Part shown: positions 1,272 to 64,000 of the stretch, piece by piece
Layout: the number at the start of each line of letters is the position of its first letter
Position numbering within the stretch: position 1 is the stretch's first letter
IMG/VR virus record: IMGVR_UViG_3300035208_001463
Location: 48,521-112,520 of that record
Origin: a virus
Taxonomy: Duplodnaviria; Caudoviricetes
Reading direction: 5' to 3' (one strand)
DNA length: 64,000 nt
The notes under the pieces: generated by a model
Seen by the model: only the letters and a program-made list of their open reading frames with translations
Databases searched by the model: none
What the model was told of the DNA's origin: nothing
Made by a program: the position numbers and the translations under genes

Positions 1272-2502
1272 CTAAAATGCAGCGATGATACCCCAAACTT
1301 TAGGTTGGGGAGGAGCGCGTTCACCACCAAAAAGTATTTATACTAATAGTGTTAATATATGAATGTGATTAGGACAATTAAGTTGAAACTTAATGTTTCT
1401 TCTGATGATAAGCAATGTCTCCTGCAAACAATGAGAGATTACACTGTAGCTTTTAACATCTGCTCAAATTGGGGTTTTAATAACCACACTGTCAGCAAGA
1501 TTGACTGTCACAATGCTACTTATAAAATTATTCGACAATCTGTTCCTAATCTACCCTCATCGCTCGTACAAGGTGCAAGAGATGTTGCATGTGAATCTTT
1601 GAAAGCAGTAAAATGCCATTTCAAACCCATTCGAAAAGAACATTCTGCAATGCGATATAACCAAAGAGTTATCCGTATCTGCCTTGACTCCGGGTATGCA
1701 ACCATCTCCACATCCAATGGTAGAATTAAGGCCACGTTTTGTATCCCGGAATATTACCGACAATATCTTTCGTGGAAGATTAAATCCTCTAATATATCCC
1801 TTCGTAAGAACGATGATATTTTCTACTTGCATTGCCAACTTGAAATCGATACCCCGAAGGTAACTACGGAGCGGTCGGTTATTGGAATAGACAGAGGCAT
1901 TGTTAATATTGCAGTATGCTCTAATAATGTTTTCTTTAATGCTAGGGCGATGAAGAATACGCGTGCAAAATATGCATATCTCCGAGCCGAATTACAGTCT
2001 AAAGGCACTCGATCCGCTAAACGAAAGTTGAAAAAACTTTCTGGTCGAGAAAGACGGTTTGTGACTGATGTTAATCATTGTATTTCGAAGCAAATTATTC
2101 AATTCCCATATACAATCCTTGCACTTGAAAACCTTACTAAAATACGCGTACAGAAACGTAGAAGTAAGAAGTTTAATATGAAATTAAATAGATGGGCTTT
2201 TTATGAACTAGAACGGTTTATTCGATACAAGGCAGAGAGTCTTGGTAAACTGGTTATTACTGTTGATGCTCGTTATACCTCGCAGAAGTGTTCTGCCTGT
2301 GGTCATATCTATAAAGGCAACCGGAATGGTTCTCAATACCTCTGTCGTAACTGCGGTTTTGAACTCCATGCTGACCTCAATGCTTCCCGCAACATCGCTC
2401 AAGATGGTATATCTGTTTTGAGTAGGCTGCCCGTCAACCAGCCAAATGTAGCATGTCCTTGACATAGTTACAAGCCCCGTCGTTTACGGTGGGGCGGTTG
2501 AC
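1272..2502 (+). mobile_element. Non-autonomous IS200/IS605-family (IS1341-like) element, tnpB only
   Basis: Left-end hairpin CCCCAAAC-TTTAG-GTTGGGG (1291-1310) preceded by GATA, matching TCAT at 1268-1271; right-end hairpin GCCCC..GGGGC (2474-2495) preceded by CAAG and ending TGAC at 2499-2502; no tnpA. Confidence 0.8.
1359..2462 (+). CDS. tnpB: TnpB RNA-guided endonuclease
   Basis: RuvC motifs IGIDRG, LALENL and HADLNASRNIA; Zn finger CSAC..CRNC; YTSQKC motif. Confidence 0.93.
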   Translation: MNVIRTIKLKLNVSSDDKQCLLQTMRDYTVAFNICSNWGFNNHTVSKIDCHNATYKIIRQSVPNLPSSLVQGARDVACESLKAVKCHFKPIRKEHSAMRYNQRVIRICLDSGYATISTSNGRIKATFCIPEYYRQYLSWKIKSSNISLRKNDDIFYLHCQLEIDTPKVTTERSVIGIDRGIVNIAVCSNNVFFNARAMKNTRAKYAYLRAELQSKGTRSAKRKLKKLSGRERRFVTDVNHCISKQIIQFPYTILALENLTKIRVQKRRSKKFNMKLNRWAFYELERFIRYKAESLGKLVITVDARYTSQKCSACGHIYKGNRNGSQYLCRNCGFELHADLNASRNIAQDGISVLSRLPVNQPNVACP

Positions 2503-7726: not shown

Positions 7727-10443
7727 AAAGTCTTAATCTTCCCGAGGATTTTGGTTGTTTCCTCTTTTGTCTTACCCCACGCATTATTGGCATCAAGCGG
7801 TTGCCCGTGATGCTTATTGTGGAGTATTGTTTGATCAGTTGTATGTTCCATATACTTAAACCTTTTGGTTAGTTTTTCGTTTGCTTCTTCGGCTACGTTG
7901 AATAGGTGTTTCATAATAATCTACCTCTTGTGTATATAAACAACATACCATGTTTGTGTATCCACAACACGAGCAAGATATCCTTCTTTTCTTAATCGTT
8001 TTGCTTCCAAATTTGCTCTTTCTTTTGTTGAGAATGGATGATAAACATGATATGTTTTATCTCCAAATTTTCGTGTTCTTTCACTCATTTCCTCACCATC
8101 TTCTTCGTCTCTTTTTCCACACGCTCTACAACACCAGAAACAATCTTCTTCATTGATTCCAAACTAGACATTTTCTTGTGTGCTTCACAATGCGACTTTG
8201 ACACTTCTTTGTTAAGTGTGTTGTATTTCAATACATCTTTGGGGTTGACTTTTTCAAGACCCCCTACTGTAGGTTCTTTCATATTACTTCTCCCTCACAT
8301 GTGTAGGCACATTATCTGCGCGAACGGGATTGATATTGCCCGTCGACGGGTGGAACTTGAACCACGCTCGTGCGCCACCCGGATGTGTTACAACAATATA
8401 GTTGTCTCCGGTCTCGCTGTCATACCGCGTTCCATACTTATCACCACGGAAGAATTTCATTGTTGAGTGGTCAAAGAAATGACCACTTGATCGATTCTTC
8501 ATTTCTTGTAGTGTATATCTACGTGTTTTGTTGGTCATGATAAATTACTTCCCCTTCTTCATTTCTCTCACTACATCTTCAATTTCCCCCTGCATTCCAG
8601 AAAGAAGTTCAACGGCAATTGCTTTTTTGGTAGAAGTGGGGATAACACCAATTTTCTTTTCATAATATTCTTCCGCTGCTCTTTTATATTTTTTAATGCC
8701 GGTTTCGGCGAGATATGTGACTAGTTTGATTGCCTTCTCGCGTTCATATATTCCTTTCACTTTCTTCTTCGCGAGATTCACAACAATCGGTCTGTATTGC
8801 TGACGATAAAGTGTGCCATCAGATTCTACAGAGTCAACAATATATTGTGCAAATCCTCCGATACGTGTTCCAGATTTCATTTCAAACCCTCGCACCCTTC
8901 GCAACAAACACTCCATAACGGAGTCGCCCTGCTTCCTTACCGAGATCCACAACAATAGCGAGTGTCATATAATCCTTATGCATTCGTCCTGCTTGTGTTC
9001 CCAAGTCGCGCGCAGATGCCTTTGCAGTCTGCACGTTTTCATATGCATCATAAATCGAATAAACATGACCACGGAATGAATATCGCGTGATGTCTGGTGA
9101 TTTCGCTCTGTGAATCATAGTTATTTCCTCCCCAAAATTTCAATCTCGTATACTCTAAATGGGGCGTCTGTATACATATAGTTTACGGAAAGTTTGTGTC
9201 CCTTTGCAGAAGGGTGATTCTTACGAAATGTTGCTTCTGCATTCTTTTTGTTGTGTGCTGCTTGGAGAGTCATATTATTTCCTTCCTCCGGACTTCCCTT
9301 TAATTGATGTAGGTGATTTCCATGTGCTATACTGATATCCGGTAATATATCCTCCGATGTATAGAGTGTGGATATAATTTTTCCATGCTTCTCGCATTTC
9401 AAATTTATTGCTTTCTCCGTAATGTTTAATAGTGGATGGTAAAATGTTTTTTATAAAATATTTTTCTGCTTCTCGTTTTAATAATTTAGTTACCATAATT
9501 ATTTCCTCCGTTTAGGAACTTTCACAAGTGATTTTTCCGCCCATGTTAAATACTGTCCTTGTGGTCCATGTACCTTATAATGCCAACCAATATGTCCTTC
9601 AAATCTGTAATCAAGGTATCCAATTTTCCCCACATAATATGTGGAATCTTTAACTTTAACAATATCGCCAATTTTGTATTTTGGTTTTCTTACATTGCGT
9701 CCGTTGTAATACATTTTACTTACTCCCCCAATAAATAAACACCGCGTATGGTTTTGATTCAATATAACTTTTTCTGATTATAAGTTTACTATTTGAATTA
9801 CCTTTGTGTATCATTGCAGATTTACCCTTAATTTCAGCATATCGTTTTGAAGAATATGAGTTGTAATAAACATAAAGTTTTCCATTTATTTTCCTAGTTG
9901 GTTCAAATACCATTTTAAACCACCACAATCCTCCCCCCTCTTGAAGAGGTAGGAACCAATGTAATCTTGTTGTTCCCCAGATCCTTTCTGATTTCTACTT
10001 GTCCCTCTGACATCGGAATTGGATCATCCGGATCTCCAAGAATCTTAACTTTGTAAGGAACAGGACGTCCATTAACGCGCCGTCCCTTTGGAACGGTCAT
10101 TACGAGATTGCCTTTTGCGCGGGAATAGTGGCCTATTTCGATGGACATGGTTACTTCCTCCTGACGTAAACATGATACCAATTTCTCATTTCTTTTTCAA
10201 TTCGCACGTAGTGCGTGGGTTCATAATATTTTTTCCAATAATTTGCCCGAGCCATTGTGTGTACAGAATGTGCGTGTCTAAATCTCATACCATTAAAAAC
10301 TTCTGTTTTTTCTGATTCGCCACGGTGATTTTCAACCATTTTTCTCTCCTATCCCATATAGTGAGTTTTCACGATAAATTAATTTTGTTGTTATGAGATA
10401 TGAAAATAGTTTGTGGTTATAGTATATAAATGTTTGCTTAAAA

Positions 10444-11628
10444 TTATTTTTTGTATTTCTTAATAATATTTGCATGTTTAACTTTGTAAATCTCATATTC
10501 TTCTTTTGTCAAATAACACTTTTTACCTTCTTTCGTTCGTTGTTCAACACGATCTTCTAAAAATTTAATCCACCAAATTTTATCCCTTCCAGATTTTTTA
10601 TTCCCCCTCACAATTCCGTGTTCTTCATGTGTTAATAAAACAAATTTATTGGGATCTTCTTTGATATAATATTTAATCCAATCCGGGTTTTTATTTGAAC
10701 CGTTATTAATCCAAGCGTAATATCCTCCAGCGTCCTCATCCCAAATGCAACATGCTTTCTCTTGCCAGTATAAGTGATGTCTATCTAATGCATATCCCCT
10801 ATGGTTTTCAAATCTCGTTTTACCAGATAATATGCTTTTAAAATCATAAGCTGCATCTATACGATTCTTTAAATCTTTATTCCATTTTTCACAATAATAT
10901 AATCTCGTTGGGCCGCGTAAAATATGGTGACCATACCAAAATAGTTCTCCGGTTAATTGTTCTATCCAAGATACATTTTCACTTCGGAGTATCATGCTTT
11001 CTTTATTTTTAGGATCATTCATCCTTTTTATCATACCACTTTTAAAATTTTTTATATACTCTTCGTTTTCTTTATGGAGAAGTAACACAGTATTTCGTAT
11101 TTTTTCTACATTTTCCTTGTTTTTACAAGCGCAATCAAAACATCTATAATTCTCCTCGGGTTTATCAAAATTGCATTTATAGTCGGTTCTTTCCTTCCCA
11201 CAGTCTATACATTTATAAGTTACGGTTCCAACACGTATGTGTTTTCTAGAACATTTGTAGCACCTGTATTCAGATATTTTGTAGTGTTTGGCATCACTCG
11301 GTCTTACTTTTCTTTCTCTACCACAATCAGAACATTTTAATACTATTCGTTCGGATCTTCTATTTTTCTGTGCACATGTATAACATCTATACTCTTCACG
11401 TGGCTTTTTAAAATCGGATGGGTATAAAGTTCTCTCTTTTCCACAATCTATGCACGCATAAGTTACTTTATTATTTTTCCTTCTATCCGGATTTATTTCC
11501 CACCAATGTTTACCAGCACATGAATGGCATCTATAGTCTTCTATCCATACACCGTCTTTATAAAAACGAGATTTTTGTGCTGTCTTCTCTTTTCCACAAT
11601 CAACACAATATCTAGTGATTATTACCAT
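10444..11628 (-). CDS. Multi-Zn-ribbon protein with C-terminal HNH-like domain (putative homing endonuclease)
   Basis: Four CxDCGxER..YRCxxC repeats; C-terminal LDRHH...PNKFVLLTHEEHG; paralog of 44225-45523. Confidence 0.6.
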   Translation of the reverse strand: MVIITRYCVDCGKEKTAQKSRFYKDGVWIEDYRCHSCAGKHWWEINPDRRKNNKVTYACIDCGKERTLYPSDFKKPREEYRCYTCAQKNRRSERIVLKCSDCGRERKVRPSDAKHYKISEYRCYKCSRKHIRVGTVTYKCIDCGKERTDYKCNFDKPEENYRCFDCACKNKENVEKIRNTVLLLHKENEEYIKNFKSGMIKRMNDPKNKESMILRSENVSWIEQLTGELFWYGHHILRGPTRLYYCEKWNKDLKNRIDAAYDFKSILSGKTRFENHRGYALDRHHLYWQEKACCIWDEDAGGYYAWINNGSNKNPDWIKYYIKEDPNKFVLLTHEEHGIVRGNKKSGRDKIWWIKFLEDRVEQRTKEGKKCYLTKEEYEIYKVKHANIIKKYKK

Positions 11629-44195: not shown

Positions 44196-44224
44196 TGTAA
44201 TGTTATAGCATAAATAGTTTTCTA

Positions 44225-45523
44225 TTATTTTTTATATTTTGCAATAATGTCGGCATGTTCCACTTTATAAATTTCATATTCTTCTGGTGACAGATAACAC
44301 TTCTTTCCTTCTTTTGCGCGTTGTTCTACCAAATCTTCGATGTGCTTTATCCAATAAATTCTATCCTCTGTAGTCCCATTCTTCCCTCGTATTATACCAT
44401 GTTCTTTATCAGTTAACAAAACAAATTTATTCGGATCGCCCTTGATATAATATTTCACTCTCTCCCCATTGTTAATAATCCACGCATAATATCCGTTAAC
44501 ATCTTCGTCCCAAATACAACATGCTTGTGGTTGCCAATAAAGATGATGTCGGGTAAGCGCCCTATAGTTTTTATTATCAAATCTTGTTTTACCAGATAAT
44601 ATACTTTTGTAATCATAAGCAGCGTCTATACGATCCCATAAATCTTGGTTCCAGCGTTCACAGTAGTATGCCCGACTATTATTATTCGCATTTCTTAATG
44701 CTTTGTTTCCGTACCATATCCCTTCTCCATTAGAAGCGATCAAATGTTTTTCTACCCAATATGGATCTTGCGCCATCCTTTTATTTTCTTCAATTCTCCA
44801 TTTTTGCCACTCGGGGTCTCGGGACATCTTTTTATTTCGTTCTGACATCATATTTTGCCATTCGATATTATCAGAACGTTCGTTTATACTTTGCATAAAT
44901 TTATCTTTAAATATAGGATCTTCGAAACGCTCTTTTGCCATTTTACTCATTTTCTCTATATATTCAACATTATTATAAAGTTCCTCGCGTCCTTTTATCC
45001 ATTTTGGATTTGAAGGAAGTTTTTTATTTGTTTCTCTCCTCCATTCCTGCCATTTAGGATCATTTGATCGTTTCTTCATTGCTTCATTATGACTCTTTAT
45101 CCATACTGGGTTTGAAGATAATACTTTCCCACGTTCCTTACATTTTTCTTCATAATCTGGAGCAGACATTATTTTTGCAATTGCTTTTTTATTTGCTTCT
45201 TTCCATTCGGGTGTTTGCACCATTTTTCTATTTGCTTCTGTAGTATTTTCCAACCAAATCGGATCTTTTGCCATATGTTTGCACGCGCAATCGTGGCATC
45301 TATATTGTTCTTTTGGTTTACTAAAATTACAAATATAATCAGTTCTTTGACTACCACAATCCAAACAAGTATACGTATCCATCGTATTATTACCACCATT
45401 AATCCCGCGATTCTTTGCAGCGCATGATTGACACATATGCTTTTCGCGGGATTTATGAAATGTAGAAGGATACCCAGTTCTGGGTTTACCACATATAATA
45501 CATTTATACGTAACCTTTGGCAT
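44225..45523 (-). CDS. Zn-ribbon/helical-repeat protein with C-terminal HNH-like domain (paralog of 10444-11628)
   Basis: Shared RIDAAYD.KSILSGKTRF..AL.RHHLYWQ..ACCIWDED..PNKFVLLT..EHG; repeated DPxW motifs. Confidence 0.6.
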   Translation of the reverse strand: MPKVTYKCIICGKPRTGYPSTFHKSREKHMCQSCAAKNRGINGGNNTMDTYTCLDCGSQRTDYICNFSKPKEQYRCHDCACKHMAKDPIWLENTTEANRKMVQTPEWKEANKKAIAKIMSAPDYEEKCKERGKVLSSNPVWIKSHNEAMKKRSNDPKWQEWRRETNKKLPSNPKWIKGREELYNNVEYIEKMSKMAKERFEDPIFKDKFMQSINERSDNIEWQNMMSERNKKMSRDPEWQKWRIEENKRMAQDPYWVEKHLIASNGEGIWYGNKALRNANNNSRAYYCERWNQDLWDRIDAAYDYKSILSGKTRFDNKNYRALTRHHLYWQPQACCIWDEDVNGYYAWIINNGERVKYYIKGDPNKFVLLTDKEHGIIRGKNGTTEDRIYWIKHIEDLVEQRAKEGKKCYLSPEEYEIYKVEHADIIAKYKK

Positions 45524-55137: not shown

Positions 55138-55319
55138 ATTTTTCGATCTTTATACAATTGGCAGTGTAATATTTATATTTGGATCTTCCGTAGCATTGTG
55201 TTTGGCATTGCTATTTACAGATATTGATAATAGAAATATGCCATTATCCCCGTTATTTATCATCCCGTTTATAATTTCTATTATTGGGATCACTGTAATA
55301 TATATCGGTGAAAAATATC

Positions 55320-55835
55320 ATGATTGACTACATCCACGCGGCTGCTTATGTTGGTGTGATATCCACATTAATTTATTTAATCCCGCTTTGTTATTGGGAT
55401 ATAAAATATAGGAAGATACCAAAATGGACATTGGTTCCACTAATAATAATTAATTTACCATGTTTGTTTATAATGTATACAAATGGATTACCATTCGCAT
55501 ATATAGCATTGTCGTGTTTATTAACAGCATTCTTTATATTATTATTTATTAAGAATTGTTATCGCGGTGCAGATGCGCGATTCTTGATACTGATATCGTG
55601 GTTCTGTATATTGAATCCAATTAATCCATTAGATAGTTCAAATATATTTCAAATCATATTTGTTATAATGTTGGCGTTCACATCGATTATGTGGATGATA
55701 TATGTTTATTTCTATAATCGACACGCTGGGAATAGGGGTTTGAATTTGTTACAGAAATTTAATAACTACCCGCGTGGATCTCCGTGGATGATCCCAATCG
55801 CAATAGCATTTATTTTAACGGCGGTGTTTGCATGA
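55320..55835 (+). CDS. A24 prepilin/prearchaellin peptidase (PibD/FlaK-like)
   Basis: Catalytic aspartates in YWDIKYRKIP and GADAR; multi-TM; C-terminal PWMIPI. Confidence 0.8.
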   Translation: MIDYIHAAAYVGVISTLIYLIPLCYWDIKYRKIPKWTLVPLIIINLPCLFIMYTNGLPFAYIALSCLLTAFFILLFIKNCYRGADARFLILISWFCILNPINPLDSSNIFQIIFVIMLAFTSIMWMIYVYFYNRHAGNRGLNLLQKFNNYPRGSPWMIPIAIAFILTAVFA

Positions 55836-57032
55836 ACGAAGAAATAATAATTATAGATAAGTTTGAAGTGTTTTATAAATGGTATCGTTGGTGGAAAGCG
55901 CGCGGAGGAATGCATTACTATGGATGGGGAGATGGTGAGTATATTCTCGAAGGGTTGAAGAATGATCCGTCGAAAGTTATTGAACTTGGAAGGTTGCAGG
56001 GTTGGTGGAAAGAATGACAACAACACGTGAAGAAGAAATGGCGAAACTGCGCGAACGATATGCGCAGAAAATGAAAGGCGGTATACCGGAAGAAAAACCA
56101 CAGAAAGAAGAAGCGCCGGTTATAAAAATAAAATTAAAGAAACCGCGCATAAATTTAAAACCATACTTATTCTTAATTGAAAATGACATCAGGAAAATAT
56201 TCCGACTTCCACAACGAGAGTGGGGGGTTGGTGGATTGAAGTTTGAGGAGTTAAAGAAACCGTTGAATTTGGATTGGTTGGAAAAGAATGGGGGGAGGTT
56301 GTTTTAATCACCAATAATACCCTCTATTTTTCACAGGTCTTAAATACTCACCAAACTTTTGAAAATATTGTTTTTCCTTTTCTCTGAATGATTTATTCAA
56401 CCCTCTCCTATACCACGAAGGATCGTGCCTCATCCAATAACGATTAAATTTCATCCACCCGAACATTGGATGATTATATAAAACCATTCCTTTTCTTATA
56501 GTGTCACTCATTCTTCTGTCTCCATCTCTCGGATGAAAGGTTCCTCTTGTGGATAGTTATCCATTTTTTCCGGATTTGTTTCTTGAAGATTTTTATTTAT
56601 TCTCACATACATTGGGTGGTCATGTTGTTCCCACAATTCTTGGTTCCTAACAATCAGATCTTGTCTGATTTCTTCCCACCTAATAAGAGCGGTCTTTTTA
56701 GAAAGACAAACATATTGTGTGTTCGTAGATTCGTAATCACTTATACCCACAAGGTAGATTTTCGTAGTTCCTCATTAAGCGCGCGCAAAAATTCCCGCTT
56801 CCTTTCTTTTCTCTGCTGCTTCTGATCTAATTCTTGATTCCTGCAAAATCCACAATGACTCATACAAAGCGCGCGGTAAGGATGATAGGCCAAACCATAC
56901 TCGTGGATAGAATTGGTAAAGTTGTGGAATGCTACATTATAACGGTGCGCTTTTTTAACGATTTTATTGTAGATGCGACGTGTATGTGACATCAAAAGAA
57001 TATATGAGTTGAAAGTATTTATAAATTTCTAA

Positions 57033-57105
57033 TGTCAACGCTCGGATTTGAACCGAAGTCTCCTGCGTCCAAGGCAGGAAGGATACCAGACTACCCCACG
57101 TCAAC
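57033..57105 (-). tRNA. tRNA-Pro(TGG)
   Basis: Anticodon arm CCTGC-CTTGGAC-GCAGG; T arm TTCGG-TTCAAAT-CCGAG. Confidence 0.85.
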
Positions 57106-57116
57106 AAAAGTGTTTA

Positions 57117-57413
57117 TCAAACCGGCACATGGGACTTGAACCCCGGACCCCATATCTACTTCGTCACACCACCTCAAGGCGGCCTCATTCTTTTCGATAT
57201 GGACTTACTCCGCTCTGGATCATAGTGGAATTCCACAACCGTTTCCGGATATTACGTGGCACAGACAACCACAGAGATGCTTTAACCACCAACCCGTGAT
57301 CAATGGATTGGGCCGGTTGATTGTGTCTTTCCGTGTACAAATCAGACACGCTGTTTGGTATCAAGAAACAGCACTCGTCTCGTGGCGTGGTCTGCAACAC
57401 CGCTTTAACCACG
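57117..57413 (-). ncRNA. Unidentified structured RNA with a tRNA-like T-loop, between tRNA-Gln and tRNA-Pro
   Basis: Terminal stem 57309-57320/57117-57129, GGG-TTCAAGT-CCC loop, several hairpins, duplicated GTGGTTAAAGC..GCCACG motif. Confidence 0.55.
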
Positions 57414-57415
57414 GA

Positions 57416-57489
57416 TAGGGTCGGAATGAGTCGAACATTCCCCGCAAGGTTCAAAGCCTTGCATCCTTAGACCGGTAGACGACGACCCT
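57416..57489 (-). tRNA. tRNA-Gln(TTG)
   Basis: Acceptor AGGGTCG/CGACCCT; anticodon arm CAAGG-CTTTGAA-CCTTG; T arm GAATG-TTCGACT-CATTC. Confidence 0.9.
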
Positions 57490-57633
57490 TCAATGCCAAG
57501 AAGAGAATATTTGATATGAACGCAATCCCTTATATTTCTCTTCTTGACACATACACATACGCTTCAAAACTATTTATACTTTTATATTTTCTAAAGGACA
57601 TTCTTTTGGGAACTTTCTTTGTTCAAAATCACT

Positions 57634-57661
57634 AAAAACATCAACGTTGTTGCCAACATCG
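57634..57661 (-). terminator. Hairpin (GCAA tetraloop) plus U-tract just downstream of the CRISPR array
   Basis: Minus strand GATGTTG-GCAA-CAACGTT-GATGTTTTT. Confidence 0.4.
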
Positions 57662-57675
57662 AAAATCTTTTTATT

Positions 57676-57859
57676 GTTCTAGTACAACATCTATCAGATA
57701 TCTCTCTTGTTTAGTAATACCGTGATACCCGCCGCATATCGTCAACAGTTCCATTACAACATCTATCAGATATCTCTCTTGTTTACAATCCATCAAAAAT
57801 TCTGTAATGGACAGAACCAGGTTCTAGTACAACATCTATCAGATATCTCTCTTGTTTAG
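57676..57859 (-). CRISPR. CRISPR mini-array: three 39-bp repeats, two spacers (33 and 34 bp)
   Basis: Repeats at 57676-57714, 57748-57786 (3 mismatches) and 57821-57859: GTTCTAGTACAACATCTATCAGATATCTCTCTTGTTTAG. Confidence 0.9.
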
Positions 57860-59232
57860 CACGTATTTTTCTTTCTTTTCCCAAACAACGCTTTCTTTTT
57901 TGTCTTTTTTATACAACCGTTTTCTTGTTGTTCTTTTATTTCTGTAATGCCACGCAACAATATATTTTTTGCAGCGTTGGTATCCCTATCATGAGCAACC
58001 CCACATTTTGAGCAAACCCAATTGGATTCTGATGTTAATTCATTATTTACATTACCACACTTATTACAAGTTTTAGATGTGTATGCAGGATTAACCTTTA
58101 TCAGATGGTCTCCCATTTTATATGAAAGCATACGAACAAATTCACTGAAACTATTATCAGTCCACGCTTTGCGTTTCGTCCGATCTCCCTTCAACGTTGA
58201 ATTTGAAACTTCTGATGGGTTTCCTCTCTTGGTATGGAAATCACGCAAATCCATATCTTCAATAACAACATAATCGTAATTGTTTTTTAATGTGGTTGTT
58301 ATATCGTGCAGCCACCATTCTTTTTTATTTGAATCGTGCTCGCGAATATGTTTTATTTTTCTAGAAATTATTTTATATTCGCGGGAATCATAATTAAATT
58401 TGGATGCACGCTCGTTCCAATAGGATATTTTTTCTTCAGCGTCACTAATTAATTTGTTAATTTTTCTACCATCGGATAAAGTAATGAAACAACGTTCATT
58501 GTTATTTAATCTGCGTATGTTCATATCAACCCCAATAATTTTCAGTTGTGATATGGGTTGTGATTGTACATTTGATGATTCAAATTCACATGATAGTGAC
58601 GCATACCAATTACCAAGTATATCACGAGAAACATTTACGCGTTTTATTTTACCACGTATGGGTCTGTGATAAACCAAATTTAATACCCCGATTGCCGGCA
58701 ACTTCAACTTTCCTTGTTCTTCGTATAAAACAATAGAATCCGATGAAGTCCATGTCATAGAATTATAATTTCGCTCCTTCGGATACTTGGGATATCCGCC
58801 CTCACCTTTGAAAAATTTAACACGCGCGCTATTTACACGTTCTAAAACTTCCTGAAGCATAACAGCGGGGGGAATATCAACTTCTATGTTGTTTCCTTTG
58901 TGTTTGTTTTTTAATATAACTCTTGCCGACTTAACAAATTCATAATCGCTTGTACTAATACCAGTTAATTTTTTACCCCCACCTTGATGAGTAATGGGTT
59001 TACCAAGATGGTAATATTCATTTGGTATTTTTAAATTGGTGGTTTTATGACCATACCAAGCAAAATTTTCTAAATATGAAAATTTAGCAAAATTGTAATC
59101 ATCTTCAAAATTATGTAATGCATAACGATAAAACCACCAACAATCGTGTAACCACATTTTCAATATGGTTTGTTGGTGGCGAGATGGATACACGCGAAAC
59201 TTATAGGCCATTTTAGTTTTTGTTGTTTCCAT
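57856..59232 (-). CDS. CRISPR-associated TnpB-derived (Cas12f-like, type V) RuvC nuclease, 458 aa
   Basis: AYKFRVYPS N-terminus; RuvC IIGVDMN, VVIEDM and HDRDTNAAKNI; CNKC/CSKC Zn finger; stop codon inside CRISPR repeat. Confidence 0.82.
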   Translation of the reverse strand: METTKTKMAYKFRVYPSRHQQTILKMWLHDCWWFYRYALHNFEDDYNFAKFSYLENFAWYGHKTTNLKIPNEYYHLGKPITHQGGGKKLTGISTSDYEFVKSARVILKNKHKGNNIEVDIPPAVMLQEVLERVNSARVKFFKGEGGYPKYPKERNYNSMTWTSSDSIVLYEEQGKLKLPAIGVLNLVYHRPIRGKIKRVNVSRDILGNWYASLSCEFESSNVQSQPISQLKIIGVDMNIRRLNNNERCFITLSDGRKINKLISDAEEKISYWNERASKFNYDSREYKIISRKIKHIREHDSNKKEWWLHDITTTLKNNYDYVVIEDMDLRDFHTKRGNPSEVSNSTLKGDRTKRKAWTDNSFSEFVRMLSYKMGDHLIKVNPAYTSKTCNKCGNVNNELTSESNWVCSKCGVAHDRDTNAAKNILLRGITEIKEQQENGCIKKTKKKALFGKRKKNTC

Positions 59233-59245
59233 CCCAATTCACCTT

Positions 59246-59313
59246 TAAACAAGATTCGAGTCTGACTGTTGCTTTTTATCAGATTGCTCTGAAAGGACTA
59301 CTAGACTAGTCCT
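59246..59313 (-). ncRNA. Candidate tracr/scout-like RNA in the nuclease 5' leader
   Basis: Partial anti-repeat (TAAACAAGA..TCTGA..TGTTG on + strand) and two hairpins between promoter and RBS. Confidence 0.5.
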
Positions 59314-59320
59314 ATATCCT

Positions 59321-59347
59321 ATACGCGTTATTAGTATTTATAAGTTT
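59321..59347 (-). promoter_or_regulatory. TATA promoter AAACTTATAAATACTAATAACGCGTAT
   Basis: Same motif as 13535-13560 and 32722-32748. Confidence 0.7.
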
Positions 59348-59849
59348 CTAAAACAAAATATTTAAATACTATTAAAACGCATTAATATATGGACTTGTTC
59401 GAAAGTCCTTCTATGAAAATAGTAAATAGTTCACCTAGAAATCTCTAGATCGTGAATATCGAAACTACCTTTGCATTCTCCAACGGACAATCTGTAGGAA
59501 ACTCTCTTTCTTTCAAATCTTGAAAAATATCATCACTATTATTAAAATTAAATATCTTTTTGTTTAGAGCCGCGCACCAAACGTGCTCATCGTCGTCGTA
59601 GTTGTGGTAAAACTGTCTACACGACGAATTACAAAATTCTATTTCATATGAGACAATCTTTTTCATTTCAAATCACCATCCAGCAAGCAAGCTGGATATA
59701 AAAAAGTTTGTTTAATTTAAATAATTGCATTTAATTTTCTTCGGTATCATCAATCATTTTAATTCCCTTCTCATTCGTCAACATTAATATTTTCGTTTCT
59801 TTCTTTTATCAACACTTTCCAACCGACACTTCCAATCTTTACAAACATA

Positions 59850-60317
59850 TTATTCTTCTCCTTTCAACATCTTTTCTGCTTTCATTGTATTTATATCTTT
59901 CTTCATTTTCTCATTCAACTTTTCAACCATCAAATATATCTCTTCTTCTGTATATCCATCAGGCACAACACTTAACCCATTATATGCAACAGGTTCAATC
60001 TTCCTCTTCCACAGATTTTGATCGCGCGTTATTACTCCATCAATAATAGGAATTTCGTATTCAATCCAATACCCAGTGATCAGTGTGAATATCAATTCGC
60101 CTTCGATTTTTGTTATCTCTCGCTTGTGATCGCAAGTTGTGTAAGCGCGCACAACTCTGGAATAAATATTAACCGGAACTTCATCACCCGGTTGATATAC
60201 ATCCATCAAACAATCAAAGTCTTTCGTCTGAAAAGTATTGATAATAGCGTTGCCGCATATTGGACACGAAACATCTAGTTCTATCAGATCATACATTCCC
60301 ATTTTAATCACCCACAA
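59850..60317 (-). CDS. Hypothetical Zn-binding viral protein
   Basis: MGMYD..CPICG..FQTKDFDC motif. Confidence 0.55.
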   Translation of the reverse strand: MWVIKMGMYDLIELDVSCPICGNAIINTFQTKDFDCLMDVYQPGDEVPVNIYSRVVRAYTTCDHKREITKIEGELIFTLITGYWIEYEIPIIDGVITRDQNLWKRKIEPVAYNGLSVVPDGYTEEEIYLMVEKLNEKMKKDINTMKAEKMLKGEE

Positions 60318-60391
60318 CGGGCCGGAAGGGAGTTAAACCCCTGACCACTTGATTAAAAGTCAAGCGCTCTACCTGACTGAGCTACCGACCC
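60318..60391 (-). tRNA. tRNA-Lys(TTT)
   Basis: GGGTCGGTAGCTCAG..CTTGA-CTTTTAA-TCAAG; variant T-loop TTTAACT. Confidence 0.88.
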
Positions 60392-60505
60392 AATGGGTTT
60401 TTTGAGCGTTCCCACGCTGAACGTTTGTCAGTATTTTGGTGGCCGTATTTATTCCTAACATAATCGTCACATTACTCCCTACATCATAGACAACCATAGG
60501 GAAAG

Positions 60506-60600: not shown

Positions 60601-60602
60601 GA

Positions 60603-60675
60603 TAGACCCGACCGGGATCGAACCGGTGACACCCGCCTTATAAGAACGGTGCACTACCTACTGTGCTACGAGTCT
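60603..60675 (-). tRNA. tRNA-Ile(TAT)
   Basis: Acceptor AGACTCG/CGGGTCT; anticodon arm CCGTT-CTTATAA-GGCGG; T arm ACCGG-TTCGATC-CCGGT. Confidence 0.88.
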
Positions 60676-60699
60676 AAAAATATATCGTTGGGTGATACT

Positions 60700-61085: not shown

Positions 61086-62189
61086 ATGCACCCAGATCTA
61101 TCAATCGTCATTCCTACTTATAATGAAGCAGAAACCATCCAAACCACGATACAAAAAATATCTCATATCATTCGTAATAGCAATGTTCCTTTTGAGATTA
61201 TTGTTGTGGATGATTCGTCCACGGATGAGACCCAACAATTGGTAATTGATATGATCGCGCGCCGTTATCCTGTGGTTCTGGTGACGCGCACAAAAGATCC
61301 GGGACTTTCACAATCTGTAATGGCGGGGATAGAGCGCGCACAAGGAAGTGTGGTCGTGGTTACTGATGCGGATGGAAGTCATGACTTCAAATTGATACCA
61401 AAGTTATACTCTGAAATAAAAAGTGGTGGGGCAGATATTGTAATTGGGAGTCGTTATATGCCCGGCGGCGGGATAAAAGACTGGCCTGTCAAACGCCGTG
61501 TCATTTCGTGGGGAGCAACAACACTATCAAGAATTTTATTTCCACAAATCTCCGACCCCGTTTCCGGTTTCTTCGGAATCAAAAGGGATCTTGTCCTTCA
61601 CACCCCAAGCATCAAACCACGCGGGTACAAGATCCTTCTTGAATTTCTAGGCAAATGTCGTTGGCACACATTTAAAGAATTGCCTTATGTTTTTCAAAAT
61701 CGAAAACGTGGGAATAGTAAACTCAAAGCCGCAATAATGGCCGATTTTTTGAAACAAATAATAAACATCTCACTTTTTCCCGGGCGCGCATGGGATGAGT
61801 TACGAAAAATAATAAACTTCGGAATAGTGGGTCTTGTTGGTGTCTCCGTGAATATGGTATGCTTATCTATTTTTAAAGAAGTATTTTCTGTGCCACTGAT
61901 TTACGCGAGTTTTTTATCAATCGAAATAAGTATTTTAACAAACTTTCTAATGAACGATAAATGGACATTCCACGGATTGAAATGTGAAAAATCATTCCTT
62001 CACAAGATGTTTAGTTATAATTCAATTTGTGTTGGATCAATGTTAATAAATGTTGCAACACTTATGACACTAACATTTGTAGGAATAAACTATCTAATAG
62101 GAAATGCAATCGGGATAGGGGTTGGATATATTTGGAATTTTTTAATGAATAGAAGAATAACTTGGGTGGAAAATTTGCCCAAGTTTTAA
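61086..62189 (+). CDS. GT2 polyprenol-phosphate glycosyltransferase (DPM1-like) fused to GtrA-like domain
   Basis: SIVIPTYNE, VVDDSSTD, TDADGSH, IGSRY and DPVSGF motifs; four C-terminal TMs with FGIVG..NF..N..WTF. Confidence 0.9.
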   Translation: MHPDLSIVIPTYNEAETIQTTIQKISHIIRNSNVPFEIIVVDDSSTDETQQLVIDMIARRYPVVLVTRTKDPGLSQSVMAGIERAQGSVVVVTDADGSHDFKLIPKLYSEIKSGGADIVIGSRYMPGGGIKDWPVKRRVISWGATTLSRILFPQISDPVSGFFGIKRDLVLHTPSIKPRGYKILLEFLGKCRWHTFKELPYVFQNRKRGNSKLKAAIMADFLKQIINISLFPGRAWDELRKIINFGIVGLVGVSVNMVCLSIFKEVFSVPLIYASFLSIEISILTNFLMNDKWTFHGLKCEKSFLHKMFSYNSICVGSMLINVATLMTLTFVGINYLIGNAIGIGVGYIWNFLMNRRITWVENLPKF

Positions 62190-62206: not shown

Positions 62207-62671
62207 TTAAACAGATTTATCAATAATAATCTGTGTTCCACCGTCAGCAAAGTTTCCTACAATAACAATGCGCGCGGGTACATCCAATGCAGCAGCAGAC
62301 ACGAGTTTAAGGCTCGATCCAATCGCCGGATCTGCTACCGACGTTGCAACAAAATTGTCTCCAGATGCAGATGCAGCAATTGTCGTCCCGTCAAAATCAG
62401 TCATTGTAAACGCTTGGGGTGCTGTAATACTAACACTTGTAAGCAATGCCTGATCCTGCCCGCCCATATCCACCATCTGAATTGATGCGGAACTTGTCTT
62501 CTGAACGGTAAACATTACAACATGCGCCTTCGATACATTGTCGAACATCCCAAATGCGAATGCTCCAACCACTGCTGCGAGAATCACCGTGATAGATACC
62601 ATAAGCATGACACCCACCACATTTGATACCGCGCTATCATTCTTCTTAATACACATCATTTTTATCTCCAT
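62207..62671 (-). CDS. Archaeal type IV pilin (class III signal peptide, Pilin_N/DUF1628-like)
   Basis: KKNDSA|VSNVVGVMLMVSITVILAAVVGAFAFG. Confidence 0.88.
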   Translation of the reverse strand: MEIKMMCIKKNDSAVSNVVGVMLMVSITVILAAVVGAFAFGMFDNVSKAHVVMFTVQKTSSASIQMVDMGGQDQALLTSVSITAPQAFTMTDFDGTTIAASASGDNFVATSVADPAIGSSLKLVSAAALDVPARIVIVGNFADGGTQIIIDKSV

Positions 62672-63386: not shown

Positions 63387-64000
63387 CTGACACACTCTAC
63401 CACTCCAATGTAGTAGGTTTCAACGTTACCGGGCATTCCAGCATTGCGTCGTGGGGTATCAGTGCTCCCATCGTACACATCTCTTTCTGTGTACGATCGA
63501 TCATACTTTTTTGACGCAATGCTATATTGAATGCCGCATTAACGTCAGCATGATCAACGTGTCCACAAACAGGACACTTAAATTCCTTACCATTCCGTTG
63601 ACCACGCGCGCCACATTTAGAACAATCTTGTGAAGTGTAAGACGGATTAACATAAAGGACGGGGACACCAAGCAGCTTGGCTTTATATTCAACAAATGTT
63701 TGAAGTTGATAGAAAGACCAACTGTGCAAGGCATATTTGAAAGGTTTAAATTGTCTTTTACTTGTAGTTTGAATTCCTTTCAAATTCTCAAAAACAAGCA
63801 ATGCGTGTTGTTCCTTTGCCATATCAACAATCTTACGACTGATTTTATGGTTAAGGTCTTTTACAATACGACTCTCACGGTTTTTCATCTTCTTTACTTC
63901 GCGAAACTTTCCTTCTTTCTGAAGTCGTTTTCGAATTGATAAATACTTTTTATGGATATGAAGTGATTTCTTACCGAGTTTTTCAATCTTTCCGGTATCG
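63387..64000 (-). mobile_element. IS200/IS605-family element, right end (continues beyond window)
   Basis: Minus-strand hairpin CTACTAC-ATTGGA-GTGGTAG followed by terminal GTCAG ending at 63387. Confidence 0.65.
63397..64000 (-). CDS. tnpB: TnpB, C-terminal part (5'-truncated by window)
   Basis: Frame open to window end; LVFENL, WSFYQL, YTSQDCSKC, CPVC and HADVNAAFNIA motifs. Confidence 0.9.
   Translation of the reverse strand, partial: DTGKIEKLGKKSLHIHKKYLSIRKRLQKEGKFREVKKMKNRESRIVKDLNHKISRKIVDMAKEQHALLVFENLKGIQTTSKRQFKPFKYALHSWSFYQLQTFVEYKAKLLGVPVLYVNPSYTSQDCSKCGARGQRNGKEFKCPVCGHVDHADVNAAFNIALRQKSMIDRTQKEMCTMGALIPHDAMLECPVTLKPTTLEW

What the first reader, a model, noticed from the sequence alone, without database searches (positions are those of the whole stretch)
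57634..59347. Virus-encoded TnpB-like nuclease coupled to a CRISPR mini-array instead of transposon ends (nascent type V system)
Seen: a 458-aa protein with IS605 TnpB-type N-terminus, intact RuvC D/E/D and a Zn finger, longer than the 367-aa IS-associated TnpB in the same window. Its TAA stop lies inside the first of three 39-bp repeats. In the sense orientation the repeats end ..GTACTAGAAC or ..GTAATGGAAC, reminiscent of archaeal ATTGAAAC ends. Spacers are 34 and 33 bp. I see no IS end hairpins and no cas1/2/4. Established: Cas12 effectors arose repeatedly from TnpB, and viruses carry adaptation-less mini-arrays against competitors or hosts. Inference: a compact, possibly independently evolved Cas12f-like system.
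Basis: partly seen in the sequence, partly recalled or inferred. Interest (0 to 1): 0.88.

Follow-up and report, generated by a model that had tools for sequence, protein, structure and literature searches.

The report
Virus-borne TnpB-derived CRISPR nuclease with leader tracrRNA
A virus of methane-producing archaea carries a very small RNA-guided DNA-cutting system: a transposon-derived nuclease, a three-repeat CRISPR array, and a helper RNA that appears to lie in the leader of the nuclease's own messenger RNA; it is a rare relative of the recently described TnpB-to-CRISPR intermediates.

Summary
ORF 57856-59232 (-) encodes a 458-aa TnpB-type RuvC nuclease with an intact D/E/D triad and a CxxC..CxxC zinc finger. 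Its stop codon overlaps the first of three 39-bp repeats, which are separated by unique 34- and 33-bp spacers.

The array is not a chance repeat. Seven other loci of the same protein clade carry 2-10-repeat arrays on the same strand just after the gene. One nested member has lost its array.

I also found a conserved structured RNA between the TATA box and the ATG (59233-59312, -). It has two hairpins with compensatory changes and an anti-repeat that co-varies with each locus's own repeat. I read it as a tracrRNA lying in the effector's 5' leader. Two other clade members, one in the sister group and one placed on a long branch inside the core group, have the anti-repeat between gene and array instead.

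A contig from another sample has the same repeats and spacer 2 but an unrelated spacer 1, which indicates spacer turnover.

The 112.5-kb virus record has no cas1, cas2, cas4 or tnpA. No spacer target was found.

Best reading: a TranC-like, minimal type V dual-RNA system on a virus of Methanomicrobiales. This kind is known (Jin et al. 2025). The leader-borne tracrRNA and the methanogen-virus setting are a new variant. The scan's look-up by sequence found look-alikes only in this genome.

The parts
59335..59343 (-). TATA box (sense TTATAAATA). The virus-wide ACGCGT box follows at 59323-59328. This is the inferred promoter of the whole unit.
   Evidence: Read directly from the sequence. A TATA-like box sits at the same distance (~24 nt) before the conserved GGACT start in 5 of 6 loci. 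Use as a promoter is inferred.
59233..59312 (-). Candidate tracrRNA, which is also the 5' leader of the effector mRNA. Hairpin 1 is 59295-59312. Hairpin 2, with a GNRA loop, is 59279-59292. The anti-repeat is 59246-59272. The GGTGA ribosome-binding site is 59239-59243.
   Evidence: Conserved in all 6 array-bearing core loci and absent from the array-less L008. All 11 pairs are 100% paired and 5 have compensatory changes; the covariation score is 0.503 against 0.198 in shuffles (0/500). The cognate repeat:anti-repeat duplex is the best in 6/6 rows and columns. The covariance model hits only these loci, at 72-86 bits.
57856..59232 (-). 458-aa TnpB-derived RuvC effector. D236 is codon 58525-58527, E325 is 58258-58260 and D417 is 57982-57984. 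The zinc finger is C389/C392/C407/C410. The Lys-rich tail (aa 438-458) is disordered in the model.
57821..57859 (-). CRISPR repeat 1 (gene-proximal). It overlaps the last base of the Cys codon and the TAA stop.
57787..57820 (-). Spacer 1 (34 nt). An unrelated spacer of the same length takes its place in a contig of run X4.
57748..57786 (-). CRISPR repeat 2, with 3 differences from repeats 1 and 3.
57715..57747 (-). Spacer 2 (33 nt). It is unchanged in runs X2, X3 and X4.
57676..57714 (-). CRISPR repeat 3 (terminal). It is identical to repeat 1 here and carries 3 SNPs in runs X3 and X4.
57538..57675 (-). Flank after the last repeat. It is a 5'-truncated paralogue of the 73-aa ORF 59445-59666, followed by that gene's downstream promoter.
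59391..59454 (+). Diverged, inverted paralogue of the tracr element, behind a mirrored TATA/ACGCAT promoter. It has no good anti-repeat.
   Evidence: Covariance-model hit of 29.8 bits, E 3e-4, with a hit at the homologous place in L008. Its duplex with the repeat is only -12.7 kcal/mol. The promoter inverted repeat is 59321-59347 / 59356-59382.

Best explanation
The locus is a self-contained, adaptation-less class 2 type V-like CRISPR system of the TranC kind: a TnpB lineage that has become CRISPR-associated. It is carried by a virus of Methanomicrobiales methanogens.

Proposed mechanism:
1. One TATA promoter is read on the minus strand.
2. The transcript starts with an ~80-nt structured leader of two hairpins and an anti-repeat. 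It continues through the 458-aa RuvC nuclease gene and runs without a gap into a 3-repeat, 2-spacer array.
3. The leader, or a fragment released from it, acts as a tracrRNA. Its anti-repeat pairs with nt ~2-31 of each 37-39-nt repeat. Together they rebuild a split omega-RNA-like scaffold, leaving the last 6-8 repeat bases and the 3' spacer free.
4. The nuclease, loaded with this dual RNA, cuts DNA that matches the spacer next to a still unknown 5' PAM/TAM.
5. New spacers must be installed in trans, presumably by the host's Cas1-Cas2.
6. The likely use is conflict with competing viruses or other mobile elements in the same host.

Shown: the gene, its catalytic residues, the array, the conserved gene-array linkage across the clade, the covariation of the RNA, and a spacer difference between samples.

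Inferred: transcription, processing, cleavage, the PAM, the targets and the source of new spacers.
For: Effector:
- It is a TnpB-type RuvC/TNB protein with an invariant D/E/D triad and zinc finger.
- The AF2 model (pLDDT 74.7) is closest to ISFba1 and ISDra2 TnpB. AsCas12f, Fanzor2 and LaTranC follow.

Linkage to arrays:
- Arrays lie on the same strand after the gene in L009 (6 repeats), L010 (9), L011 (at least 3), L294 (10), L295/L296 (4), L297 (at least 2) and L298 (at least 2). They start 16-53 nt after the gene in the first five and ~180-200 nt after it in L297 and L298.
- In the first five loci the repeats share the window repeat's AGAGRGA core and following bases, and end in GTGAC or GAAAC (the window's in AGAAC). 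Those of L297 and L298 differ.
- Spacers are unique and mostly 32-38 nt (three shorter ones, 21-26 nt, in L010).

Phylogeny:
- The array-bearing proteins form one clade (SH-aLRT 99-100) inside ordinary ~370-aa TnpBs.
- About a dozen 50%-identity clusters among the best hits from 1.84 billion representatives match a profile of the core clade over its full length.

tracrRNA:
- The element is conserved upstream in all 6 array-bearing core loci and missing in the array-less L008.
- Two helices are 100% paired, with 5 of 11 pairs compensatory. No shuffle of 500 reaches the covariation score, and slid controls give 0.04-0.11 against 0.50.
- The cognate repeat:anti-repeat duplex (-16.7 to -23.3 kcal/mol) beats every non-cognate pair (-7.8 to -16.0).
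- The window's duplex beats 500 of 500 shuffled repeats.
- The covariance model finds nothing in 60 ordinary-TnpB loci.
- L297 and L298 have an anti-repeat between gene and array instead.

Array dynamics: a contig of run X4, from a different study, keeps the repeats and spacer 2 but differs at nearly every base of spacer 1 with no net length change.

No transposon or adaptation genes: Cas1, Cas2, Cas4 and Y1 TnpA are absent from the record.

Host:
- The virus's GT2-GtrA protein is closest, among named cellular proteins, to Methanoregula, Methanoculleus and other Methanomicrobiales.
- An archaeal type IV pilin and a prepilin-peptidase-like gene lie nearby.
Against: - There is no expression data. 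No listed run holding the locus is on record as RNA.
- No protospacer was found for either spacer, so neither interference nor a PAM is shown.
- The tracr leader alone does not fold better than shuffles (z -0.84).
- For three loci the cognate duplex energy is not individually significant against shuffled repeats (39-89 of 500). The case therefore rests on covariation and conserved position.
- The array has only two spacers, and the virus record is 82% complete, so a distant cas gene on the missing part cannot be excluded.
- The spacer difference rests on a single low-depth assembled contig (depth 4.35).
- I could not compare the protein with published TranC clade sequences.
Confidence: 0.8

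Rival explanations
1. It is an ordinary IS200/IS605-type TnpB. Its omega-RNA lies at the 3' end of the gene, and the 'array' is a tandemly duplicated right end. The unit would be a selfish transposon remnant rather than a CRISPR system.
For: The protein passes NCBIfam's guided_TnpB model, and its best solved relative is ISDra2 TnpB. The first repeat abuts the stop codon, where a right end or omega-RNA would lie. The flank after the last repeat is a truncated gene, as at an insertion site.
Against: There is no Y1 TnpA in the record. No structure is conserved in the 3' 200 nt of the ORFs, and Rfam gives no hit. The sequences between repeats are unique, of constant length, differ in every locus, and differ between samples. 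The RNA that co-varies with the repeat lies upstream of the gene, not at its 3' end.
Confidence: 0.06
2. The array is real, but the upstream element is not a tracrRNA. It would be a cis-regulatory leader, for example an autoregulatory site where the effector, or the crRNA repeat, binds next to the ribosome-binding site. The effector would use the crRNA alone, or a scaffold encoded elsewhere.
For: In the window the anti-repeat ends 2 nt before the GGTGA ribosome-binding site and 14 nt before the ATG, so pairing with repeats could occlude translation. There is no clear terminator between leader and ORF in the window; L010 has a hairpin and L011 a hairpin with a T-run there. L294 carries a spacer against its own effector gene, which hints at self-regulation.
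Against: The duplex covers nearly the whole repeat and co-varies in three separate segments. Two structured hairpins lie 5' of it. This is the architecture of a type V tracrRNA, and L297 and L298 show the same design as a separate unit between gene and array. The two roles are not exclusive.
Confidence: 0.1
3. It is a decaying or inactive relic. The mini-array and nuclease would no longer function in this virus, which is on the way to the array-less state seen in the related virus L008/L007.
For: There are only two spacers and no targets were found. A close viral relative keeps the orthologous gene and promoter but has lost both the leader element and the array.
Against: The catalytic residues and zinc finger are intact. 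Repeats 1 and 3 are identical. The window's anti-repeat has the strongest complementarity of all loci (0 of 500 shuffles reach it). Spacer 1 differs between samples while the rest is conserved. The locus is present in several studies.
Confidence: 0.04

Closest known systems
TranC systems (transposon-CRISPR intermediates; Jin et al., Cell 2025, as described in PMC13565253, PMC13639567 and bioRxiv 10.64898/2026.03.27.714800)
   Same: Both have a TnpB-sized effector (300-600 aa) that is closer to TnpB than to classical Cas12. A short CRISPR array (3-20 repeats of 32-38 bp) follows on the same strand. No cas1 or cas2 lies beside it. The guide is split into tracrRNA plus crRNA. Some are virus-borne (CauTranC9).
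   Different: Here the anti-repeat RNA lies upstream, in the effector's 5' leader, not at the 3' end of the ORF or between effector and array. The setting is a virus of methanogenic archaea. Similarity to the solved LaTranC (clade 11) is confined to the C-terminal TNB region (E 4e-8). Whether the clade equals one of the numbered TranC clades could not be tested.
ISDra2 / ISFba1 TnpB with omega (reRNA) RNA, IS200/IS605
   Same: This is the best sequence and fold match. The RuvC D/E/D triad, zinc finger and WED-REC-RuvC-TNB order are the same. The guide is at the 3' end of the RNA scaffold.
   Different: It is ~50 aa longer, with an expanded and variable N-terminal REC region. There is no TnpA and there are no IS ends. 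It has multiple exchangeable guides in an array, and the scaffold is split and encoded upstream.
Cas12f / Cas14 (type V-F), including archaeal DPANN Cas14
   Same: It is a miniature RuvC effector with tracrRNA-dependent guides, repeats of ~36-37 nt, and an archaeal context for Cas14.
   Different: It fails the NCBIfam Cas12f2 model (48 against 450 bits). PDB Cas12f matches cover only the last ~80 residues. PADLOC Cas12f models hit the ordinary TnpB of the same window just as well. There is no cas1/2/4 module.
Virus-borne mini-CRISPR arrays used in inter-viral conflict (Sulfolobales viruses; recalled from my own knowledge, not checked here)
   Same: A very short array sits on an archaeal virus without adaptation genes, presumably serviced by host machinery.
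   Different: Those arrays borrow the host's effector complexes. This virus brings its own effector and its own tracrRNA.

Membership tests
Type V CRISPR-Cas (Cas12 sensu lato) | Single effector with a tripartite RuvC domain (D, E, D) and a TNB/zinc-finger insert | tested here: met
   Pfam Cas12f1-like_TNB at 2.7e-20. D236, E325, D417 and four Cys are invariant in 19 sequences.
Type V CRISPR-Cas (Cas12 sensu lato) | Effector gene linked to a CRISPR array, conserved across homologues | tested here: met
   Arrays lie after the gene in the window and in 7 other loci of the clade. One nested member lacks an array.
Type V CRISPR-Cas (Cas12 sensu lato) | Adaptation module (cas1, cas2, sometimes cas4) in the locus | tested here: not met
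   None in the 112.5-kb record. This module is also absent from the V-U and TranC systems.
Type V CRISPR-Cas (Cas12 sensu lato) | crRNA-guided, PAM-dependent DNA binding or cleavage | not testable with these tools
   No protospacers were found, and no biochemistry was possible.
TranC (transposon-CRISPR intermediate) | Effector phylogenetically inside TnpB diversity rather than inside an established Cas12 subtype | tested here: met
   The clade is nested among ~370-aa TnpBs. Only guided_TnpB passes its cut-off; the Cas12f2, c2c8, IS200_TnpB and IS607_TnpB models do not.
TranC (transposon-CRISPR intermediate) | Guide RNA split into tracrRNA and crRNA | tested here: met
   There is a co-varying anti-repeat element with two hairpins. 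This is sequence evidence only; expression was not tested.
TranC (transposon-CRISPR intermediate) | Membership of one of the published numbered clades | not testable with these tools
   The published clade sequences are not held. It is not close to LaTranC (PDB 9jfo/9jfq, E 4e-8, C-terminus only).
IS200/IS605 TnpB (OMEGA) | TnpB-family protein by curated model | tested here: met
   NCBIfam NF040570 at 153.9 bits against a cut-off of 100.
IS200/IS605 TnpB (OMEGA) | Lies in an IS with a TnpA (Y1 or serine) and/or terminal LE/RE hairpins | tested here: not met
   No Y1_Tnp in the record. The neighbouring ORFs have no transposase domains. The unit is bounded by a promoter shared with L008 and by an array.
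IS200/IS605 TnpB (OMEGA) | Omega-RNA scaffold overlapping the 3' end of the ORF | tested here: inconclusive
   No conserved structure was seen in the last 200 nt of six ORFs plus the first repeat, and Rfam gives no match. Six sequences are few for this test.
Cas12f (type V-F) | Match to curated Cas12f models over the full length | tested here: not met
   NCBIfam Cas12f2 at 48.4 bits against 450. PDB Cas12f hits cover query residues ~341-434 only.

The most novel reading that the evidence does not exclude
This may be a previously undescribed CRISPR-associated TnpB lineage, so far seen mainly on virus-like contigs with archaeal-type promoters. In it the tracrRNA has moved from the ancestral position after the gene, still seen in L297 and L298, into the 5' leader of the effector mRNA. 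One promoter would then give tracrRNA, mRNA and pre-crRNA as a single transcript. That would show that the 'split omega-RNA' can be relocated. It would also explain why tracrRNAs were not found for several TranC clades when only the effector-to-array gap was searched.
Probability: 0.4. Interest if true: 0.72.

Novelty: new variant of a known kind. Interest (0 to 1): 0.6.

Why it matters
The route from the transposon nuclease TnpB to CRISPR effectors is a current question, and compact effectors are sought as genome editors. This locus adds three things.

First, it is a rare lineage carried by a methanogen virus that brings its own effector and helper RNA.

Second, it gives sequence-level evidence (covariation) for a tracrRNA in the effector's 5' leader. 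Two other clade members keep the anti-repeat between gene and array. The helper RNA is therefore a movable module, not tied to the 3' end where the ancestral omega-RNA lies.

Third, the result is practical. A recent screen found tracrRNAs for only two TranC clades when it looked between effector and array (bioRxiv 10.64898/2026.03.27.714800). Searching the 5' leaders may supply the missing guides.

The locus also offers a natural case of spacer turnover on a virus that has no adaptation genes.

Tried and rejected
- Energy-only search for an anti-repeat in 1.8-2 kb around each of four loci. The best hits were no better than shuffled repeats. The anti-repeat emerged only from the comparative alignment.
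- Conserved structure in the 3' end of the ORFs plus the first repeat: none.
- Rfam on 57300-59700: only tRNA-Gln and chance hits.
- Spacer targets. Only chance-level matches in 50,697 phage records. No exact 24-nt 5' cores in IMG/VR. No second copy in the virus's own record or in any fetched locus. No match with up to 3 mismatches in 401 sampled genomes of the class of Methanoculleus. No PAM could be derived.
- The search for related loci with the clade alignment, in the viral, metagenome and genome collections. It chose generic TnpB motifs and returned only ordinary TnpBs at 23-32% identity.
- A clade-specific CWWFYRY DNA pattern and a repeat-family pattern in IMG/VR: no further member found.
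- tracr covariance model in 151 sampled Methanomicrobia-class genomes: one 31-bit hit with no TnpB beside it, taken as chance.
- Sequencing runs: no RNA holder was listed, so expression could not be examined.
- Single-sequence fold of the leader: z -0.84, uninformative.
- PADLOC Cas12f, Cas12u2 and Cas12u4 models hit this protein, but they hit the ordinary TnpB of the window equally well, so they do not discriminate.
- A phylogeny with Cas12f, Cas12n and published TranC sequences could not be built, because those sequences are not retrievable here.
Full report
**What is there.** The window is the last 64 kb of a 112,520-bp IMG/VR virus record, classed as linear and about 82% complete. On the minus strand, ORF 57856-59232 encodes a 458-aa protein. 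Pfam finds the Cas12f1-like TNB domain (2.7e-20) and weak OrfB_IS605 and HTH_OrfB matches. NCBIfam's general guided_TnpB model passes its cut-off (153.9 against 100 bits). The IS200_TnpB, IS607_TnpB, Cas12f2 and c2c8 models do not. In an alignment of 19 relatives, the RuvC residues D236, E325 and D417 and the four zinc-finger cysteines are invariant. Three 39-nt direct repeats follow directly: 57821-57859, 57748-57786 and 57676-57714. They are separated by unique 34- and 33-nt spacers. The TAA stop lies in the first 4 nt of the first repeat. The repeat occurs nowhere else in the virus record. The record has no Cas1, Cas2, Cas4 or Y1 transposase. The one exception is the 367-aa TnpB at 1359-2462, which is a solo gene with no visible transposase.

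**Is the array meaningful?** The protein belongs to a tight subfamily of 430-490 aa at 40-87% identity. There is then a jump down to ~28% identity with ordinary ~370-aa TnpBs. I fetched DNA for all members that were available. L009 (6 repeats), L010 (9), L011 (at least 3, at a contig end), L294 (10) and L295/L296 (4) each carry an array on the same strand, starting 16-53 nt after the stop codon. These repeats are 37-38 nt and share the window repeat's AGAGRGA core and following bases; they end in GTGAC or GAAAC where the window's ends in AGAAC. Their spacers are unique and mostly 32-38 nt, with three shorter ones (21-26 nt) in L010.

A profile of the subfamily, searched against 1.84 billion representative proteins, found about a dozen 50%-identity clusters among the best hits that match over the full length. 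I could fetch two of the more distant ones, L297 and L298. Both also have arrays, with different repeats, about 180-200 nt after the gene. In a maximum-likelihood tree the array-bearing proteins form one clade (SH-aLRT 99-100) nested among ordinary TnpBs. The single array-less member, P0014 in L007/L008, sits deep inside this clade and so represents a secondary loss.

**A helper RNA.** A search for an anti-repeat by duplex energy alone gave nothing above shuffles. The 3' ends of the ORFs show no conserved fold. Aligning the 220 nt upstream of the start codons was decisive. All six array-bearing core loci share an element between a TATA-like box and the ATG. The array-less L008 lacks it, although it shares the promoter region. 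The element consists of:
- hairpin GGACTRG...CYAGTCC;
- a second hairpin closed by a GNRA loop in five of the six loci;
- an ATAAATA motif;
- a stretch complementary to that locus's own repeat.

All 11 pairs of the two hairpins are 100% paired and 5 have compensatory changes. The covariation score is 0.503, against 0.198 in shuffles (0 of 500 reach it) and 0.04-0.11 when partners are slid.

The anti-repeat pairs with repeat nt ~2-31 in three segments. In each segment the bases differ between loci but stay complementary. Examples are TCTGA:TCAGA, TCTAGTA:TACTAGA and TGTAG:CTACA; GAG:CTC against GGG:CCC; and TGTTAA:TTAACA against AGTAGG:CCTACT. In a 6x6 matrix the cognate duplex (-16.7 to -23.3 kcal/mol) is the best in every row and column, with non-cognate pairs at -7.8 to -16.0. 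Against shuffled repeats the window's duplex is never reached (0 of 500). Three other loci are individually weak (39-89 of 500), so the argument rests on covariation and position. A covariance model of the element hits only these loci (72-86 bits) and none of 60 ordinary-TnpB loci.

In the window the element is 59233-59312 (-). The TATA box (59335-59343) lies ~24 nt before its first base, the spacing expected of an archaeal promoter. The anti-repeat (59246-59272) ends just before the GGTGA ribosome-binding site. I therefore read the 5' leader of the effector mRNA as the tracrRNA. Another first-stage note (e1-5886238) had proposed the same from this window alone. The comparative evidence here tests and supports it.

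In L297 and L298 the anti-repeat, preceded by hairpins and a TATA-like motif, lies between gene and array, which is the usual place. L297's protein is in the sister group; L298's protein is placed inside the core group, but on a long branch with unusual composition. The position of the helper RNA has thus shifted within this lineage. The predicted N-terminal extension of P0010 (...DWLNSPSG...SSYQTRIL...) back-translates to the same hairpin and TACCAGACTCG motif. This suggests that its start codon was mis-called through a leader element (inference).

**Dynamics.** Several DNA runs from landfill, groundwater and other samples hold the locus. In run X4, from a different study, one contig spans 57470-57879. 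It matches the repeats and spacer 2, but differs at almost every base of 57785-57819, with two insertions and a 2-nt deletion that cancel out. That is an unrelated spacer 1 of the same length. The terminal repeat carries three SNPs in X3 and X4. Replacement at the gene-proximal end with retention of the distal spacer is the pattern expected of polarised acquisition. It rests on one low-depth contig.

**Context and host.** The virus's GT2-GtrA glycosyltransferase (61086-62189) is 44-49% identical to proteins of Methanoregula, Methanoculleus and other Methanomicrobiales, and 50-98% identical to many virus-like contigs. An archaeal type IV pilin and a prepilin-peptidase-like gene lie nearby. tRNA genes flank the locus here and in relatives.

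The related virus L008/L007 shares the promoter region up to the exact base where the leader element begins (59313). It has the orthologous gene but neither leader nor array. The sequence after the last repeat is a 5'-truncated paralogue of the 73-aa ORF that lies just upstream of the promoter. No IS-like ends are present.

**What it is and how it probably works.** The best-supported reading is a minimal, adaptation-less type V-like system of the TranC kind. One transcription unit gives tracrRNA (the leader), the effector mRNA and the pre-crRNA. The repeat:anti-repeat duplex plus the two hairpins rebuild a split omega-RNA-like scaffold. The 3' spacer then guides the intact RuvC nuclease to matching DNA next to an unknown 5' motif. 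Spacers are added in trans. Both spacers lack matches in isolated phages, in IMG/VR, in 401 sampled genomes of the class of Methanoculleus, and in the virus itself. Targets and PAM are therefore unknown. Use against competing viruses or mobile elements is an inference, by analogy with other virus-borne arrays and with the phage-targeting CauTranC9 (bioRxiv 10.64898/2026.03.27.714800).

**Comparison with what is known.** TnpB lineages that became CRISPR-associated by splitting the omega-RNA into tracrRNA and crRNA were named TranC by Jin et al. (Cell 2025). I did not read that paper directly; it is described in PMC13565253, PMC13639567 and the bioRxiv preprint. Those systems have 300-600-aa effectors, 32-38-bp repeats, 3-20 repeats and no adjacent cas genes, and some are viral. 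The present locus fits this kind.

It is not Cas12f, Cas12n or LaTranC-like by sequence. The PDB matches are ISDra2 TnpB at E 3e-20 over residues 126-427, Cas12f at 2.5e-10 and LaTranC at 4e-8 (both C-terminal only), and Cas12n at 1.6e-7 over residues 262-426. Foldseek ranks TnpBs first. I could not test whether it equals one of the numbered TranC clades.

The features that differ from published descriptions are the leader-borne tracrRNA and the methanogen-virus setting. The preprint reports that tracrRNAs could be found for only two TranC clades when the effector-to-array gap was searched, so an upstream location may matter in practice.

**Verdict.** The kind of system is already known, so this is a new variant rather than a new category. 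Confidence is 0.8 for the overall mechanism. It is higher (~0.93) for 'CRISPR-associated TnpB-derived effector', ~0.8 for 'the leader is the tracrRNA', and ~0.5 for the inter-viral conflict role.

Noticed in passing
L294:1361-1396 and L294:1865-1900: The first, gene-proximal spacer of the 10-repeat array in L294 matches that locus's own effector gene at 35 of 36 positions, on the same strand. The only mismatch is at spacer position 3, and the 5' flank is ...ATTGGTT. This could be autoregulation, a spacer taken from a rival's homologous gene, or an accidental self-acquisition.
   Followed up: partly
window 59391-59454 (+), with inverted repeat 59321-59347 / 59356-59382: The promoter region is an imperfect palindrome. 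A mirrored TATA/ACGCAT promoter faces the other way and is followed by a diverged copy of the leader element (GGACTT..AAGTCC hairpin, CTAT-GAAA-ATAG hairpin, TAAATAG). This copy lacks a good anti-repeat. It is also present in the array-less relative L008 (1787-1849).
   Followed up: partly
window 57538-57675 (-) and 59466-59564 (-); L008:6-142: The DNA right after the last repeat is a 5'-truncated paralogue (~70% nt) of the 3' half of the 73-aa ORF upstream of the promoter. It is 81% identical to the homologous gene of virus L008. A crRNA made from the intact terminal repeat would carry this flank as a fixed guide, matching the L008-type gene with a few mismatches. This is speculative.
   Followed up: partly
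L008:1778-3322 and L007:33-1352: A related virus keeps the orthologous nuclease gene (P0014, 439 aa, catalytic residues intact) and the same promoter. It has lost both the leader tracr element and the array, and a 145-aa ORF follows the gene instead.
   Followed up: partly
window 1359-2462 (+) and 63397-63999 (-): The same virus has two further TnpB-like genes. One is a 367-aa solo TnpB with no transposase nearby. The other is cut by the contig end and is 82.5% identical in nt to a 351-aa gene in L007. Neither has repeats beside it.
   Followed up: partly
window 57032-57106, 57416-57489, 60317-60392, 60601-60676; L297:146-530; L298:60-376: tRNA genes (Pro, Gln, Lys and Ile here; clusters of four in L297 and L298) flank the effector loci in several of these virus-like contigs.
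   Followed up: no
window 58543-58578 (effector aa ~219-230): This is a hypervariable patch in the effector. A contig of run X5 differs at most bases there, with indels. The 87%-identical P0001 also differs there, and the AF2 model has low confidence at 219-225.
   Followed up: no
window 61086-62189 (+), 62207-62671 (-), 55308-55835 (+): Host-like genes lie here: a GT2-GtrA glycosyltransferase (closest named cellular relatives in Methanomicrobiales), an archaeal type IV pilin N-terminal domain protein, and a weak prepilin peptidase A24 match.
   Followed up: partly
window 10443-10900 and 44224-44669: The 3' parts of two minus-strand genes (394 aa and 432 aa) are 72% identical in nt over ~460 bases, so they are paralogous. 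One carries a weak DUF7836 match.
   Followed up: no
L294 (JBAZJC010000182.1): This 3.2-kb contig is binned in a 'Candidatus Omnitrophota' MAG. It carries the same TATA-spaced leader, effector and array as the virus-like loci with archaeal-type promoters, so it may be a binning artefact.
   Followed up: no
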